Origin: Candidatus Multivorans sp.
GTDB lineage: Bacteria > Acidobacteriota > Thermoanaerobaculia > Multivoradales > Multivoraceae
Reading direction: 5' to 3'
Length of the DNA stretch: 64,000 nucleotides
Assembly: GCA_965224025.1 (NCBI GenBank)
Contig: OZ245033.1
Span: forward strand, 1,760,001-1,824,000
Shown: positions 6,623 through 11,405 of the stretch, piece by piece
How the letters are laid out: the number at the start of each line of letters is the position of its first letter
Position numbering within the stretch: the stretch's first letter is position 1
Translations under genes and position numbers: made by a program
Notes under the pieces: generated by a model
The model's input: the letters and a program-made list of their open reading frames with translations, nothing else
Databases searched by the model: none
What the model was told of the DNA's origin: nothing

Positions 6623-8037
<1,415 letters not shown>

Positions 8038-8210
8038 GGCGGCGGCGGACACCCGCCTGAGTCGGGACACCGTCCTGTGGCGGAGGCTCACTCGGCTGGC
8101 AGCCGTGACTTCGGTTCGCTTCCTGGTATTCCCGGAAGTGCCGGTGGGCGACTGGGACTCTCCACCCTTTAGCAAGTGTGTTTTGGGGAGGCTGCTGCGG
8201 GTCAGGGAGG

Positions 8211-9464
8211 TCATGCGACCTGGGCATGGCATCGCTTGTTGGGGTCGAAGAGAGTTCGGTCTCGGAGCATGGCGCAGGCGACGCCGAGGAGTCGGTCGAC
8301 GAGTTGTCTGATGGCGCGTCCGTGCGTCTTTCCCTGGGCTTTCATGGCGTCGTACTTGGCGCGGCTGATCGGGTCATGCTCGATGGCGACTCGTCCCCAG
8401 TGATAGACGGCGTCGCTGAGGTGTTCGTTGGCGGCGAGTCGTCGCATGACGATGAGCTTCTTGCCGGACTTGACGGTCACCGGCGCCACTCCGCAGAGGC
8501 AACGCAGTGCCTCGTGGTCTCTGCGGCCCAGGCTTTGATCGGCCTCGGAGAGCAGGGTGGCGAGGCCGACCTTGCCGAGTCCGGGCAGCGACCTGAGGAT
8601 GGCGGCGTCGCTCGGCTTAGGGGAGTCGTCGTCGTTTTCCCGTTGGGCCGGGGCCTCGAGTGCGCGGGTCATCCGCTCCAGCCGCTTGTCGGCGTCGGCG
8701 AGTTGGCGGCAGACGGTGTCGAGCACCGGCCGGAGGAGTCCTATGTGTTCGACGGCGGCCTTAACGGTGTCCGGGGAAACGGCGATCGGCTCGGCCCGCA
8801 GTTGATCGCGCAGTTGGGCGGAGGTCAGGCGCCGGATGCGGTGTTCCTTGAGCAGTTTGGCGAGCGTGGCTTCGCGCAGCCGTCGAGCCTTGCCGGGGGT
8901 CGGCGCCAGTCGCCACAAGGCCAGCGCGAAGGGCGCCGACACCTCGTTCTTGACCACGGCGAGAAACTGCGGGTAGTAGCGCCAGAGCTGGTCGCGGACC
9001 TGGTTCTCCAGGCGGTTCTTCTGGTTGACCAACTGCTTGCGGGCGCGGGACACCTCGCGCAGCATGACGATGGCGGCATCGGATGGTTGCACGCGGTTCA
9101 GGCACTCGGGGTCGGTGCGAAGCGCGGCGGCGAGCACCCGTGCATCGCGGCGGTCATCCTTGGCGCCGGCGACGGAGAAGCGGTCCCTGAAGCGGTCGAG
9201 CTGCTTGGGGTTGATCGAATGGACGGCGAAACCCCGCTCCAGGAGAGTCTCGACCACCGGTCCGTGCGGCACCTCGATGGCGACGCCGATCTCGTCCGGA
9301 GACGTCGGTCGGGTATGTCCAAGGAGCCAGTCGGCCATGGCGGCAAGTCCCTTGCCGCTGTGGTCGAACGCCCGCTCCCCCCTCACCTTGCCGTCCCGAT
9401 CCAGCACACACACGTGGTGGGTCTCGGACCCCCAGTCCACGCCGACGAACCACGTCCTGGTCAT
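8211..9464 (-). CDS. IS110-family DEDD recombinase/transposase
   Basis: MTRTWFVGVDWGSETH (D), AIE (E), AKDDRRDA (DD), LRSLPGLG, GVAPVTVKSGK (catalytic Ser motif); GGAG RBS upstream. Confidence 0.95.
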   Translation of the reverse strand: MTRTWFVGVDWGSETHHVCVLDRDGKVRGERAFDHSGKGLAAMADWLLGHTRPTSPDEIGVAIEVPHGPVVETLLERGFAVHSINPKQLDRFRDRFSVAGAKDDRRDARVLAAALRTDPECLNRVQPSDAAIVMLREVSRARKQLVNQKNRLENQVRDQLWRYYPQFLAVVKNEVSAPFALALWRLAPTPGKARRLREATLAKLLKEHRIRRLTSAQLRDQLRAEPIAVSPDTVKAAVEHIGLLRPVLDTVCRQLADADKRLERMTRALEAPAQRENDDDSPKPSDAAILRSLPGLGKVGLATLLSEADQSLGRRDHEALRCLCGVAPVTVKSGKKLIVMRRLAANEHLSDAVYHWGRVAIEHDPISRAKYDAMKAQGKTHGRAIRQLVDRLLGVACAMLRDRTLFDPNKRCHAQVA

Positions 9465-9499
9465 CTCGTCCTCCTTCTCCCTTGCGGTAGTGTTGCCTG

Positions 9500-9660
9500 G
9501 TCGGCATGCCGCGTTGCCTGCCCGTACCTGTACTGGTGCTCTAAGGCACTGACTCTCCACTGGGCGTCCAACGCGGCGAAGCAGCCAGGGCACGGGTCCC
9601 AGCCAGGTGCTCGAAGCACAGTGCGCCGGTGGTCGCTCCTGGCTGCTTGCCGACCTTCCT
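9500..9660 (-). ncRNA. IS110 bridge RNA (target-binding and donor-binding loops)
   Basis: Two stem-closed internal loops carry segments matching the target (GTGCGCCGG 9621-9629, CCCAG 9598-9602) and the element ends (GACTCTCCAC 9551-9560, CCTGTAC 9527-9533). RNA boundaries are approximate. Confidence 0.8.
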
Positions 9661-9864
9661 TCAGTGACTCCGGCAGGCCGGAAACGAAACCGACCGGCGG
9701 TCCCGGCTGCGGAAGCTGCCGGTCCCGCGGAAAACGGCAGACCGTTTCCCGCCGGACCTTGGAAAACCGGCAAGCCGGTTTCCCACAGCTACCGCAGCCG
9801 CGACGGCTACTGGTCGATTCCACCTCTCTCAACGACCCACCAGAATCCACCCGAGAAAGGTACA

Positions 9865-9935
9865 GGTGCGCCGGCGTCCCCGCCGGCATCCGCCCCTGGG
9901 AACGCGGGCATCCTGCCCGCATCCGCCGAAGGCGG
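9865..9935 (+). repeat. REP-like palindromic repeat doublet
   Basis: GGTGCGCCGGCGTCCCCGCCGGCATCC followed by CTGGGAACGCGGGCATCCTGCCCGCATCC; relatives at ~2641, ~13882, ~13972, ~22190, ~23388 and ~42553. Confidence 0.8.
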
Positions 9936-9951
9936 AATCCGGAGCCCTGCC

Positions 9952-11405
9952 GTGGCAGTCGTGGCCGCGCTCTGTGCGACGGTCGGCGCAACCCCCATCG
10001 CAGCGCAGACGGACGACGAAACCCCCAGCTACTACGGGATGTCTGGCCGGTGATTCAGCAGCGGTGCCAGGGCTGCCACCAGCCGGCGCAGTTGGGTGGT
10101 GAGCTGAACCTGACGAGCTTCGACGGGCTGGCCGCGGGTGGGATGGGCGGGCCGGCGTTCGTCGCCGGGAAGCCGGACGAAAGCCGGATGCTGAAGATGC
10201 TCCGAGGCGAGATCGAACCGGCGATGCCCATGCGGGCCAAGCCCCTGGCGGAGGCGGAGGTTGCCGCGATCAGCGACTGGATAGCGGCCGGGGCCGCCGA
10301 CGACACGCCGGGGGAGATGCGCCTCGGCGCGCCGGCCGGGCCGATCGTCTACCACCAGCCGCCGGTGATCACGGCGGTCGCCTACTCGGCTGACGGCGAG
10401 TGGCTGGCGGTGTCGGGGAATCGAGAGGTCCTGCTTCACCGGCGCTCGGAGGTCGGAAACGGTGACAGCCTGGAGGCCCGGTTCAGCAGCGTTTCCGAGC
10501 GCATCCAGGGGCTCGCGTTCCTGCGCAACGGACGGCTGATCGCGACCGGCGGCACACCCGCGCGCTTCGGCGAGATCCAGATCTGGGACGTCGACGACCG
10601 GAAGCTCCGTGTCTCGACCACGGTTTGCTACGACACCCTGTTCGGCCTCGCCATCTCGCCCGACGAGCGCCGGCTCGCGGTCGGCTGCGCGGACAACACG
10701 GTGCGCATCCACCAAGCGACCAGCGGCCGCGAATTGCTGCGGATGAACCACCACGAGAACTGGGTGCTCGGGGTCGTCTTCGGCGGCGACGGCAGGCGCA
10801 TCGTCTCCGTCGGCCGCGACCGCGCCGCCAAGCTGATCGACGCGAACAGCGGCGCCTTCGTCGAGAACATCAACCTGCTGCGCGGCGAACTCGCCGCGAT
10901 CGTCCGCAACCCCAGGATCGAAGCCGTCGTCATCGGCGGCGAAGACCGCGTGCCCTACTACTACAGGATGGACCGCGCCCGGAAGATGCTGATCGTCGAC
11001 GACTCGACCCTGGTGCGGGAGTTCGAGCGCCAGGACGGCGAGATCTTCGCGCTCGCCGTCGACCCGCGCGGCGACCGTCTCGCGGTCGGCGGCGCCGCCA
11101 AGGCGGTGCCGATCTACGACCTCGAAACCGGCGAGCGGACCGCGACCGCGTCCGGCCACAGCGCCGGCATCTACACCTTGGCCTTCGACCCCACCGGCGC
11201 CGAACTCGCTACCGCCGGGTTCGACGGCTCGCTTCGGCTCTACCGCGCCGCCGACGGCGAACTGCTGCACGAGTTCGTGCCGGTACCGCTCGAAGGCGGT
11301 CTCGAGGGAGAGACCCGAGTGGCGCGGTCTCGCGCCACTCGCGAACCGGTCCGAGCGCCCCTCACCGGGCGCTCGGATGGCACGACCGCCGGAGGAGCAC
11401 CGTGA
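9952..11405 (+). CDS. Planctomycete-type cytochrome c domain + WD40 repeat protein, with a frameshift near 10035
   Basis: The signal peptide VAVVAALCATVGATPIAAQTDDETPSYY is in one frame and RDVWPVIQQRCQGCH (CxxCH) plus WD40 repeats in another; one missing base separates them. Start is uncertain. Confidence 0.78.
11313..11400 (+). repeat. Palindromic ~85-bp repeat read in frame as the C-terminus of the WD40 gene
   Basis: CCCGAGTGGCGCGGTCTCGCGCCACTCGCGAACCGGTCCGAGCGCCCCTCACCGGGCGCTCGGATGGCACGA; a similar copy is intergenic at 32765-32848. Confidence 0.75.

What the first reader, a model, noticed from the sequence alone, without database searches (positions are those of the whole stretch)
9500..9660. 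IS110 bridge RNA whose four guide segments can be read against the actual target and donor
Seen (RNA on the minus strand): the first loop is closed by AAGCAGCCAGG/CCTGGCTGCTT with inner hairpin GTGC-TCGAA-GCAC. It carries CCGGCGCAC (identical to the left target flank) and CTGGG (complementary to core + right target). The second loop is closed by CCGCGTTG/CAACGCGG with inner hairpin GTGC-TCTAAG-GCAC. It carries GTGGAGAGTC (identical to one element end) and GTACAGG (complementary to core + other end). Established: this is the target-loop-then-donor-loop layout of IS110 bridge RNAs. Here the core is CC/GG and the recombinase is long (417 aa), so it is a distinct candidate orthologue for programmable recombination.
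Basis: partly seen in the sequence, partly recalled or inferred. Interest (0 to 1): 0.75.

Follow-up and report, generated by a model that had tools for sequence, protein, structure and literature searches.

The report
Bridge RNA of an acidobacterial IS110
This is a jumping gene of the IS110 family whose built-in guide RNA matches both its own ends and its insertion site, a very clean but ordinary new example of the bridge-RNA mechanism described in 2024.

Summary
Window 8155..9866 (minus strand) is a 1712-bp IS110-group insertion sequence. It encodes a 417-aa DEDD/Ser recombinase (8211..9464). About 35 nt upstream of the start codon lies a ~157-nt two-loop RNA (9499..9655).

- **Copies.** The genome holds 12 full copies, all with the same ends. 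All sit on the 3' flank of a REP-like hairpin.
- **Empty sites.** There are 40 exact unoccupied sites. Two same-genus genomes have the orthologous site empty.
- **Relatives.** Across 24 guide lineages from 77 parsed loci (mostly Acidobacteriota), both target guides track their own flanks (0 of 10,000 permutations each). The stems show compensatory changes, the donor guide tracks the element's right end, and handshake positions behave as in IS621.

Not shown: the RNA's expression and ends, a circular form, and any recombination activity.

About 417 aa is the normal length of a very large subfamily, and CC is the core throughout the clade. The protein is nevertheless only about 19% identical to IS621 and has an enlarged coiled-coil domain.

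Verdict: a new member of a known kind, of modest interest.

The parts
8155..9866 (-). Whole IS110-group element, 1712 bp counted with a CC core at each junction
   Evidence: 12 full-length copies in the genome at 96.9-100% identity whose similarity stops at these bases. Orthologous empty sites in two same-genus genomes.
9867..9887 (-). Left target: REP-like hairpin GCCGGC-GGGGAC-GCCGGC (9887..9870) whose 3' arm runs into the left target CCGGCGCA (9874..9867)
   Evidence: The consensus of 57 unoccupied sites shows the same hairpin.
9865..9866 (-). Core CC at the left junction
   Evidence: The only bases shared by both junctions. The neighbouring bases differ: A/T before, T/C after.
8155..8156 (-). 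Core CC at the right junction
8151..8154 (-). Right target CAGT
   Evidence: Right flanks of the 12 copies: CAGT in 8, CAGC in 3, CGGT in 1.
9499..9655 (-). Bridge RNA, about 157 nt. The ends are inferred from the fold, not mapped.
   Evidence: Folds. Alignment of 28 distinct homologous RNAs with compensatory changes.
9579..9648 (-). Target-binding loop with its closing stem (9648..9638 pairs with 9589..9579) and inner hairpin (9619..9607)
   Evidence: Helices 1 and 2: 99.4% and 99.1% of cells paired. Seven of 12 pairs in helix 1 change on both sides.
9621..9629 (-). Left target guide CCGGCGCAC. The next base, U at 9620, lies opposite the second core position, where a G.U wobble is possible.
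   Evidence: Identical to 9874..9866. It co-varies with the left flanks across lineages.
9598..9606 (-). Right target guide. CTGGG (9602..9598) is complementary to CC+CAG. The four bases 5' of it (CTGG) can extend the pairing at some sites.
   Evidence: It co-varies with the right flanks across lineages.
9596..9597 (-). Handshake guide of the target loop, AC. It is complementary to the last two bases (GT) of the element's right end.
   Evidence: AC in 76 and AT in 4 of 81 loci. Definition from Hiraizumi 2024.
9509..9576 (-). Donor-binding loop with its closing stem (9576..9569 pairs with 9516..9509) and inner hairpin (9549..9536)
   Evidence: Helices 3-5: 97.8-100% of cells paired.
9551..9560 (-). 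Left donor guide GTGGAGAGTC
   Evidence: Identical to 8165..8156. Three alleles of this guide match three alleles of the right end in 64 of 64 loci.
9527..9533 (-). Right donor guide GTACAGG
   Evidence: Reverse complement of 9866..9860. Invariant in the 28 aligned RNAs.
9525..9526 (-). Handshake guide of the donor loop, UA. Its first base is complementary to the last base (A) of the left target.
   Evidence: The first base is Watson-Crick to the last left-target base in 76 of 77 loci, with three allele pairs.
8211..9464 (-). Recombinase gene, 417 aa
   Evidence: Pfam PF01548 (9.6e-35) and PF02371 (2.4e-12). IS621 8wt6 at E 7.6e-12. Model pLDDT 86.6 with IS621/ISCro4 as top folds.
8157..8165 (-). 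Left donor: the last 9 nt of the element, GTGGAGAGT
9860..9864 (-). Right donor: the first 5 nt of the element, TGTAC
   Evidence: Every relative with an intact left end starts with TGTAC.
8170..8175 (-). -35-like box TTGCTA in the right end. In a circular form it would lie 17 nt upstream of TACCTT (9862..9857).
   Evidence: TTG lies at the same distance from the end in all 25 distinct right-end/left-end combinations. The function is inferred.
9689..9812 (-). Extra ~125-nt module in the left end with two GGGAAAC..GTTTTCC hairpins. The Vicinamibacterales relatives lack it.
   Evidence: The role is unknown.

Best explanation
The region encodes the bridge RNA of an IS110-group insertion sequence.

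**Shown by sequence.**
- The element is 1712 bp and has no inverted terminal repeats.
- It sits precisely at a CC dinucleotide on the 3' flank of a REP-like hairpin.
- Its left end encodes an RNA with two internal loops.
- In the first loop, the 5' side equals the top strand of the left target and the 3' side is complementary to core plus right target.
- In the second loop, the same logic applies to the joined ends of the element.

**Inferred from IS621.**
- The element excises as a circle that joins the right end, CC and the left end.
- The recombinase tetramer holds the RNA.
- The left guides pair with the bottom strands and the right guides with the top strands of target and donor.
- The catalytic serine (S333) cuts next to the CC cores.
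- The two handshake bases after each right guide take up the exchanged top strands.
- The circle is thereby inserted without duplication beyond the core.

**Also inferred.** A promoter is assembled only across the circle junction (TTGCTA, 17 nt, TACCTT). It would drive the RNA and the recombinase gene.
For: **Boundaries and target.**
- All 12 of 12 full copies have the same ends, and their flanks read ..CCGGCG[C/T]A-CC / CC-C[A/G]G[T/C].
- The genome holds 40 exact empty sites against 1.8 expected from base composition.
- The orthologous locus is unoccupied in two same-genus genomes, and the flank continues in the same way.

**Guides of this copy.** Matches are 9, 5, 10 and 7 nt. All four together occurred in 0 of 200,000 simulated sequences.

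**Comparative test.** 81 loci were examined and 77 parsed, giving 24 guide lineages.
- The mean exact run shared by the 5' loop side and its own left flank is 8.42 nt, against 4.28 when flanks are permuted (0 of 10,000).
- The mean match of the 3' loop side to core plus right flank is 5.45 nt, against 2.92 (0 of 10,000).
- Per locus, 72 of 77 have a left run of at least 7 nt. Of 66 with a right end located, 60 have a right match of at least 5 nt.
- The donor guide allele equals the right-end allele in 64 of 64 loci, across three alleles.

**RNA structure.**
- There are 31 pairs, and 99.0% of cells are paired against 93.2% when shuffled (0 of 500).
- 11 pairs change on both sides (0 of 500).
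- Slid controls give 28-44% paired.

**Handshake positions.**
- The donor-loop position is complementary to the last left-target base in 76 of 77 loci.
- The target-loop dinucleotide is AC or AU in 80 of 81 loci.
- This matches the definition in Hiraizumi 2024.

**Protein.**
- Both Pfam domains are present.
- D10, E64, D104, D107 and S333 align to the IS621 catalytic residues.
- These five residues are invariant in 35 relatives.
- The top structural matches are IS621 and ISCro4, E about 1e-12.

**Recent activity.** Ten loci keep an uninterrupted 417-aa frame, four of them identical.
Against: **No direct evidence for the RNA or the reaction.**
- No RNA run was available, so the transcript's existence and ends are unknown.
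- No circle or tandem junction occurs in the assembly (0 hits).
- The consensus scan found no sigma-70-type promoter in 8050..9950.
- Rfam 15 has no matching family.

**Loci that do not fit.**
- Six of 66 loci have a right flank that does not match their right target guide: L031, L052, L076, L088, L104 (first hit) and L105.
- Five of 77 have a left run below 7 nt.
- One of the 12 genomic copies has guide C opposite target T.

**Limits of the statistics.**
- Related lineages are not independent, so the permutation figures overstate significance.
- In this copy the second core position is not Watson-Crick with either left guide (U in the target loop, A in the donor loop). This differs from what is described for IS621.
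Confidence: 0.93

Rival explanations
1. The conserved two-hairpin structure is only a 5' leader that controls translation or stability of the recombinase mRNA. Its resemblance to the element's ends would then reflect shared protein-binding sites, not guidance.
For: The structure ends about 35 nt before the start codon, on the same strand, with a GGAGG ribosome-binding site between them. No separate promoter or terminator for a small RNA was found.
Against: The first loop matches DNA outside the element. It changes with that DNA across lineages that use unrelated targets, for example GGGGTC-CC-TTTTC, GCGATC-CC-ATTTG and GTGGACG-CC-TCCCC. A leader has no reason to track flanking host sequence.
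Confidence: 0.03
2. The match between the first loop and the target arose because a piece of the REP repeat was captured in the left end. It would be a passive relic, not a guide.
For: The target word belongs to a repeat present at 57 or more places in the genome, so the 9-mer is common in this genome.
Against: Only the 9-10 nt next to the core are shared, not the REP hairpin. The 3' side of the loop matches the other strand of the other flank. Relatives with non-REP-like targets show the same two-sided match.
Confidence: 0.01
3. The RNA and recombinase are of the bridge type, but this family is now immobile, so the matches record past rather than present function.
For: No circle junction occurs in the assembly. 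Several copies are truncated or frameshifted.
Against: Two copies are 100% identical over 1712 bp, and four recombinase genes are identical. The window's site is empty in same-genus genomes. Many target sites remain unoccupied.
Confidence: 0.1

Closest known systems
IS621 of Escherichia coli and its bridge RNA (Durrant 2024, PMC11208160; Hiraizumi 2024, PMC11208158; PDB 8wt6)
   Same: - DEDD RuvC-like domain plus a Tnp domain with a catalytic serine.
- RNA encoded in the left end, target loop first and donor loop second.
- In each loop the 5' side reads the bottom strand (8-10 nt) and the 3' side the top strand (5-7 nt).
- Two handshake bases follow each right guide.
- The target is a REP-type repeat.
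- A -35 box lies in the right end.
   Different: - About 19% identity.
- 417 aa against 326 aa. The coiled-coil region spans about 130-270 against 123-188 in IS621, with five short helices at its tip.
- Core CC instead of CT.
- The left guides are Watson-Crick only to the first core base in this copy.
- The left end is 402 nt and carries an extra module.
- Both loops may be enclosed by a closing helix instead of following a 5' stem-loop (the register is uncertain).
IS622 / ISCro4 of Citrobacter rodentium (Perry 2025 preprint, 10.1101/2025.05.14.653916; PDB 9t56)
   Same: Same family and fold: phmmer E 4.3e-10, Foldseek E about 1e-11.
   Different: ISCro4 is a close relative of IS621 with a CT core. 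Whether any of the 72 orthologues screened there belongs to this clade could not be seen, because the supplements are closed.
ISPpu10 of Pseudomonas putida (preprint 10.64898/2026.03.19.712850, abstract only)
   Same: Insertions lie next to a GC-rich stem-loop 5' of the site. Here the left target overlaps the 3' arm of a GCCGGC hairpin.
   Different: Whether the hairpin itself contributes to recognition here is untested. A few occupied or empty sites lack a clear hairpin.
IS1111-group elements with the guide RNA in the right end (seekRNA / bridge RNA)
   Same: Same recombinase family and the same principle of RNA-guided target choice.
   Different: There the RNA lies downstream of the gene and subterminal inverted repeats are 7-17 bp (Durrant 2024). 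Here the RNA is upstream and the repeat is at most 5 bp (AAAGG/CCTTT).

Membership tests
IS110 family recombinase | [quoted passage not shown] | tested here: met
   E 9.6e-35 over residues 7-165, full model length.
IS110 family recombinase | C-terminal Tnp domain (PF02371) with a conserved serine | tested here: met
   E 2.4e-12 over residues 288-371. S333 aligns to the IS621 serine and is invariant in 35 relatives.
IS110 family recombinase | Catalytic D, E, D, D aligned with IS621 D11, E60, D102, D105 | tested here: met
   D10, E64, D104 and D107 in the phmmer alignment. The PDB chain numbering is offset by 2, which is my inference. All four are invariant.
IS110 family element | No terminal inverted repeats, site-specific insertion, no target duplication beyond a short shared core | tested here: met
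   Junctions of 12 copies. Empty orthologous sites carry a single CC.
IS110 family element | Excision as a double-stranded circle joining the right and left ends | not testable with these tools
   No junction in the assembly. Only contigs were available, no raw reads.
Bridge RNA, IS110-group type | Non-coding RNA encoded in the left end, upstream of the recombinase gene | tested here: inconclusive
   The position is met (9499..9655, gene starts at 9464). Transcription could not be tested, since no RNA holder was listed.
Bridge RNA, IS110-group type | Two internal loops, each closed by a stem and capped by a hairpin, conserved by co-variation | tested here: met
Bridge RNA, IS110-group type | [quoted passage not shown] | tested here: met
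   9 nt and 5 nt in this copy. The second core base on the 5' side is only a possible G.U wobble.
Bridge RNA, IS110-group type | The second loop reads the joined ends of the element in the same way | tested here: met
   10 nt and 7 nt. Allele agreement in 64 of 64 loci.
Bridge RNA, IS110-group type | Guides co-vary with targets across orthologues | tested here: met
   0 of 10,000 permutations reach the observed value for either side. Exceptions are listed.
Bridge RNA, IS110-group type | Handshake guides pair with the non-cognate DNA and not with the cognate one | tested here: met
   AC pairs with GT of the donor and not with CA of the target. U pairs with A of the target and not with T of the donor. 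The second donor-loop handshake base does not pair, as in wild-type IS621.
Bridge RNA, IS110-group type | The RNA binds the recombinase and is required for recombination | not testable with these tools
   Needs biochemistry or a recombination assay.
IS1111 group | Guide RNA in a long right end and subterminal inverted repeats of 7-17 bp | tested here: not met
   The right end is 55 nt and the RNA is in the left end. The repeat is at most 5 bp.
Any Rfam family | Match to a curated covariance model | tested here: not met
   No match at E <= 1 in 7500..10500.

The most novel reading that the evidence does not exclude
This acidobacterial clade may be a mechanistically distinct branch of bridge recombinases. 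Its coiled-coil (dimerisation) domain is about twice as long as in IS621, with a small helical bundle at its tip. A closing helix may tie the two loops of its RNA together. Its left guides need to read only the first base of the core: the second position is U, A, G or C in close relatives and U-U in the donor guide of the Vicinamibacterales branch. If so, core reading and complex assembly would differ from IS621, and the clade could offer different programming rules.
Probability: 0.25. Interest if true: 0.55.

Novelty: new member of a known kind. Interest (0 to 1): 0.33.

Why it matters
Bridge recombinases are being developed as programmable tools for inserting, inverting and excising DNA. Nearly all mechanistic work rests on IS621 and its close relative ISCro4.

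This element is a well-documented natural system from a distant branch, uncultured Acidobacteriota, at about 19% identity. Its donor, target, core, handshake bases, many occupied and empty sites, and natural guide alleles can all be read directly from genomes. That makes it a reasonable candidate for orthologue screening, and a natural data set on mismatch and wobble tolerance.

Biologically it adds nothing unexpected. IS110 elements are already known to target REP-like repeats through a bridge RNA.

Tried and rejected
- **Rfam 15.** Scanned 7500..10500 at E <= 1 and found no family.
- **Promoter scan.** The sigma-70/terminator consensus scan of 8050..9950 found 0 promoters. It found 3 terminator-like sites against 1.1 expected. 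One (9707..9693, minus strand) lies upstream of the RNA. This is not significant.
- **Sequencing runs.** No RNA holder was listed, and only Logan contigs were available.
- **Laying four runs.** This gave fragmented contigs. Some stop at 8151/8152 and 9867, as expected for a repeat. There was no circle joint and no information on expression.
- **Closing helix.** A helix joining the 5' and 3' ends of the RNA forms in the MFE of 28 of 28 homologues. Its register varies and the sequences are GC-rich, so I do not count it as established.
- **Subterminal inverted repeat.** It is clear in this copy (AAAGG/CCTTT) and in L073 (AACGG/CCGTT) but imperfect in others. I read this by eye and did not count it.
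- **Guide allele against target allele.** For the natural C/U allele of the left guide, the table is [[24,1],[4,4]] over 33 insertions, Fisher p = 0.0076. In the own genome alone it is [[7,1],[2,2]], p = 0.24. In one search I first used 25 in place of 24 and corrected it. The insertions are not independent of the REP subfamily, so this is only suggestive.
- **Literature.** 'bridge RNA' plus 'Acidobacteriota' returned 0 papers. 'Multivorans' plus 'Thermoanaerobaculia' returned 2 papers, neither about this (listing only).
- **Supplements.** Paper supplements are closed. The orthologue tables of Durrant 2024 and Perry 2025 may already list this clade.
- **Rows dropped from the guide-flank counts.** L054 and L055 have the same upstream RNA as L052 but a frame broken after 311 nt; they were not parsed and no right end was found. 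L077 and L106 have a disrupted left end.
- **Right ends.** For right ends I used the first hit. For L104 a second hit at +525 matches its guide but was not counted.

Full report
**What is in the sequence.**

- A stem AAGCAGCCAGG/CCTGGCTGCTT closes a large internal loop. The loop is capped by the hairpin GTGC-TTCGA-GCAC.
- After two bases, a stem CCGCGTTG/CAACGCGG closes a second loop. That loop is capped by GTGC-CTTAGA-GCAC.
Everything else is exact.
- The 156-nt piece folds to -80.3 kcal/mol with z = -3.47, and 1 of 200 shuffles folds as well.
- A wider 236-nt piece is less remarkable, with z = -1.61.
- The ORF 9464..8211 gives 417 aa. It carries the two Pfam domains of IS110 transposases, PF01548 at 9.6e-35 and PF02371 at 2.4e-12.

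**Where the element begins and ends.**

The window's genome is 5.14 Mb in 3 contigs with 67.6% G+C.
- It holds 12 full-length copies at 96.9-100% identity, plus truncated ones.
- In all 12 copies the similarity stops at the same bases. On the left it reads ..CCGGCG[C/T]A-CC|TGTACC... On the right it reads ...GTGGAGAGT|CC-C[A/G]G[T/C].
- Only CC is common to both junctions, so the core is CC. The element is 1712 bp (window 9866..8155) when counted with both cores.
- The left target overlaps the 3' arm of a GC-rich hairpin of a REP-like repeat (GCCGGC-6 nt-GCCGGC).
- The exact unoccupied word CCGGCGCACCCAG occurs 40 times, against 1.8 expected from base composition. A relaxed form occurs 57 times.
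- The window's copy lies between two convergent genes.
- In two same-genus genomes (loci L113, L117) the orthologous intergenic region carries the same hairpin followed by GCA-CC-CGGTCGCCCA.., the same right flank, and no element.
- This fixes the insertion point independently of the RNA.

**The four guides in this copy.**

- The 5' side of loop 1 holds CCGGCGCAC. This equals the left target (8 nt) plus the first core base.
- The next base is U. It could form a wobble with the bottom-strand G of the second core position.
- The 3' side of loop 1 holds CTGGG, the complement of CC+CAG.
- The 5' side of loop 2 holds GTGGAGAGTC, which equals the last 9 nt of the element plus the first core base.
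- The 3' side of loop 2 holds GTACAGG, the complement of CC+TGTAC.
- In 200,000 simulated sequences with the RNA's own dinucleotide content, the four words occurred in 1,038, 51,544, 39 and 3,453 cases. All four occurred together in none.
- The strand logic and lengths agree with IS621. There the 5' sides read the bottom strand over 8-9 nt and the 3' sides read the top strand over 4-7 nt (Durrant 2024, passages read).

**Comparative test.**

A scan of one genome per species returned 80 loci encoding relatives at 56-93% identity. They are mostly MAGs titled Candidatus Multivorans, Thermoanaerobaculia and Vicinamibacterales, plus one Azospirillum canadense contig and one 'Gammaproteobacteria' MAG.

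With the window's copy that makes 81 loci, of which 77 were parsed. L054 and L055 were not parsed. L077 and L106 have a disrupted left end.
- All parsed loci have core CC and a left end starting TGTAC.
- They fall into 24 lineages by the sequences of the two sides of loop 1. Their targets are unrelated, for example GGGGTC-CC-TTTTC, GCGATC-CC-ATTTG, GTGGACG-CC-TCCCC, TTCGTC-CC-CTCCC and GTGATAG-CC-TTGTC.
- The mean exact run shared by the 5' loop side and its own left flank is 8.42 nt, against 4.28 after permuting flanks among lineages (0 of 10,000).
- The mean match of the 3' side to core plus right flank is 5.45 nt, against 2.92 (0 of 10,000).
- Per locus, 72 of 77 have a left run of at least 7 nt. 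Of 66 loci with a right end located, 60 have a right match of at least 5 nt.
- The misses on the right are L031, L052, L076, L088, L104 (first hit only) and L105. The misses on the left are L031, L032, L070, L093 and L105.
- Lineages share ancestry, so these are not true probabilities. However, at least eight different right guides each match their own right flank.

**Donor side.**

- The right end has three alleles: GTGGAGAGT, GTGGGAAGT and GTGGGGAGT. I found them with a pattern that does not use the guide.
- The donor guide carries the same allele in 64 of 64 loci.
- GTACAGG and the TGTAC left end do not vary, so that pair says nothing either way.

**RNA structure.**

On an alignment of 28 distinct RNAs, RNAalifold predicts the two stems, their extensions and the two hairpins.
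- For the 31 pairs I kept, 99.0% of cells are standard pairs, against 93.2% in shuffles (0 of 500).
- 11 pairs change on both sides (0 of 500).
- Sliding the partner by 1-3 columns gives 28-44% paired.
- A helix joining the RNA's 5' and 3' ends forms in the MFE of all 28. Its register varies, so I leave it open.

**Handshake guides.**

Hiraizumi 2024 (passages read) defines these as the two bases 3' of each right guide. They pair with positions 6-7 of the other DNA after top-strand exchange, and they must not pair with their own DNA.
- Here the target loop has AC after CTGGG. AC is complementary to GT at the end of the element and not to CA of the target.
- It is AC in 76 and AU in 4 of 81 loci.
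- The donor loop has UA after GTACAGG. Its first base pairs with the last left-target base A and not with the donor's T.
- Across relatives this first base is U with A (31 of 31), C with G (4 of 4) and G with C (41 of 42; the exception is G opposite T).
- The second base does not pair in this copy, as in wild-type IS621.
It fits the model.

**Natural guide alleles.**

Four of the 12 copies carry U instead of C at position 7 of the left guide. Three of the 12 sites carry T instead of C there.
- I combined these with 21 insertions of the closest relatives.
- C-guide elements sit at C sites 24 times and at a T site once.
- U-guide elements sit at C and T sites 4 times each (Fisher p = 0.0076; own genome alone p = 0.24).
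- That is what a G.U-tolerant U and a strict C would give. But the T sites are also a REP subfamily (right flank CAGC), so this is only suggestive.

**The protein.**

- phmmer finds IS621 (8wt6, E 7.6e-12) and ISCro4 (9t56, E 4.3e-10) as the only solved relatives.
- D10, E64, D104, D107 and S333 align with the IS621 catalytic residues (residue names). They are invariant in 35 relatives.
- An AlphaFold2 model (pLDDT 86.6, pTM 0.79) matches IS621 and ISCro4 first (E about 1e-12, target-normalised TM about 0.6, 19% identity). TIGR-Tas and Nop5 proteins come next.
- The extra length lies in the coiled-coil region. Two long helices (130-163 and 231-270) carry five short helices (165-222) between them, followed by a low-confidence acidic linker. 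The IS621 coiled coil is residues 123-188.
- This length is not unusual. Of 8,000 candidates scored, 7,787 have E <= 1e-10. The best 120 are 409-530 aa, mostly 413-430.

**Expression (inferred).**

- The consensus scan finds no promoter in the integrated element.
- In all 25 distinct right-end/left-end combinations a TTG[A/C]NN box lies at a fixed distance from the right end. The sequence upstream of it is not conserved.
- Across a circle junction it would lie 17 nt from TAC[C/G/A][C/T/G]T of the left end. In this copy that reads TTGCTA-17-TACCTT.
- The -10-like bases overlap the right donor, so their conservation cannot be separated from recombination. The -35-like box could also be a protein contact.

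**Differences from IS621.**

- Core CC rather than CT.
- Left guides that are Watson-Crick only to the first core base in this copy. Across the donor-guide alleles, the first core position is C or U and the second is A, C, G or U.
- A 402-nt left end, with a ~125-nt module that the Vicinamibacterales relatives lack.
- The enlarged coiled-coil domain.
- Possibly a closing helix around both loops.

**Verdict.**

It is a bridge-RNA-guided IS110-group element and a new member of a known kind. It belongs to a large, uncharacterised, mainly acidobacterial clade. No paper in the searched library holds both 'bridge RNA' and 'Acidobacteriota'. Expression of the RNA, the circular form and recombination activity are not shown. 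I put the mechanism at 0.93 and the interest at about 0.33.

Noticed in passing
window 9689..9812 (minus strand); also G000 C1:3672584-3672706, 2474161-2474283, 4048787-4048909: A ~125-nt module of the left end, with two GGGAAAC(C)GG..CCGTTTTCC hairpins, recurs at about 87% identity at three or more other places in the genome. At one of them (L020) it lies next to IstB-like (IS21-type) coding sequence. It may be a leader or promoter module shared by different mobile elements.
   Followed up: partly
window 9693..9707 (minus strand): A terminator-like hairpin followed by a T-rich run lies between the extra left-end module and the bridge RNA. It is not above chance: 3 found against 1.1 expected in the region.
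   Followed up: no
G000 C1:4322367-4322573 (minus strand; locus L017): A solitary fragment covers only the bridge-RNA part of the element (element positions 160-360, 96% identity). It is cut inside the 3' stem of the donor loop, with the right donor guide changed at one base (GTGCAGG). It looks like a decayed relic.
   Followed up: partly
G000 C1:13083-13637 and C1:5044243-5045399: Two halves of one copy (element 1-553 and 556-1712) lie on the same strand near the two ends of contig C1. If the contig is circular, about 15 kb separates them. This suggests either an insertion into that copy or a rearrangement.
   Followed up: no
G000 C1:598821-600480 and C1:3853425-3855071: Two copies lack about 20-25 nt of the left end (about element 118-140). 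The bridge RNA and the gene are kept.
   Followed up: no
L063, L064, L066, L067, L069, L071, L081, L086, L087, L089, L109; L085: In several Vicinamibacterales relatives no right end was found within about 1.5 kb of the stop codon, and in L085 it lies 1037 nt away. Where found, right ends are 217-456 nt, longer than the 233-nt left end. These may be elements with cargo or long right ends.
   Followed up: no
L088 (right end +329) and L105 (right end +467): The right end is followed by CC and then TGTAC(C), which is the start of a left end, not by the sequence their right target guide predicts. This may be a tandem or donor-like junction, or a remnant of a second copy.
   Followed up: no
L077 and L106: The 5' half of the target loop (L077), or most of the bridge RNA (L106), is replaced by unrelated sequence while the recombinase gene is kept.
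   Followed up: no
G000 C1:298601-298645 (right flank of the copy at 296889-298600): An unoccupied copy of the target repeat lies directly beside an occupied one (..GGCCGGCGCACCCAGTGCC..). The repeats occur in tandem.
   Followed up: partly
window 8038..10031: The element and its REP-like target lie in the spacer between two convergent genes. The plus-strand ORF ends at 8037 and the minus-strand ORF ends at 10032.
   Followed up: no
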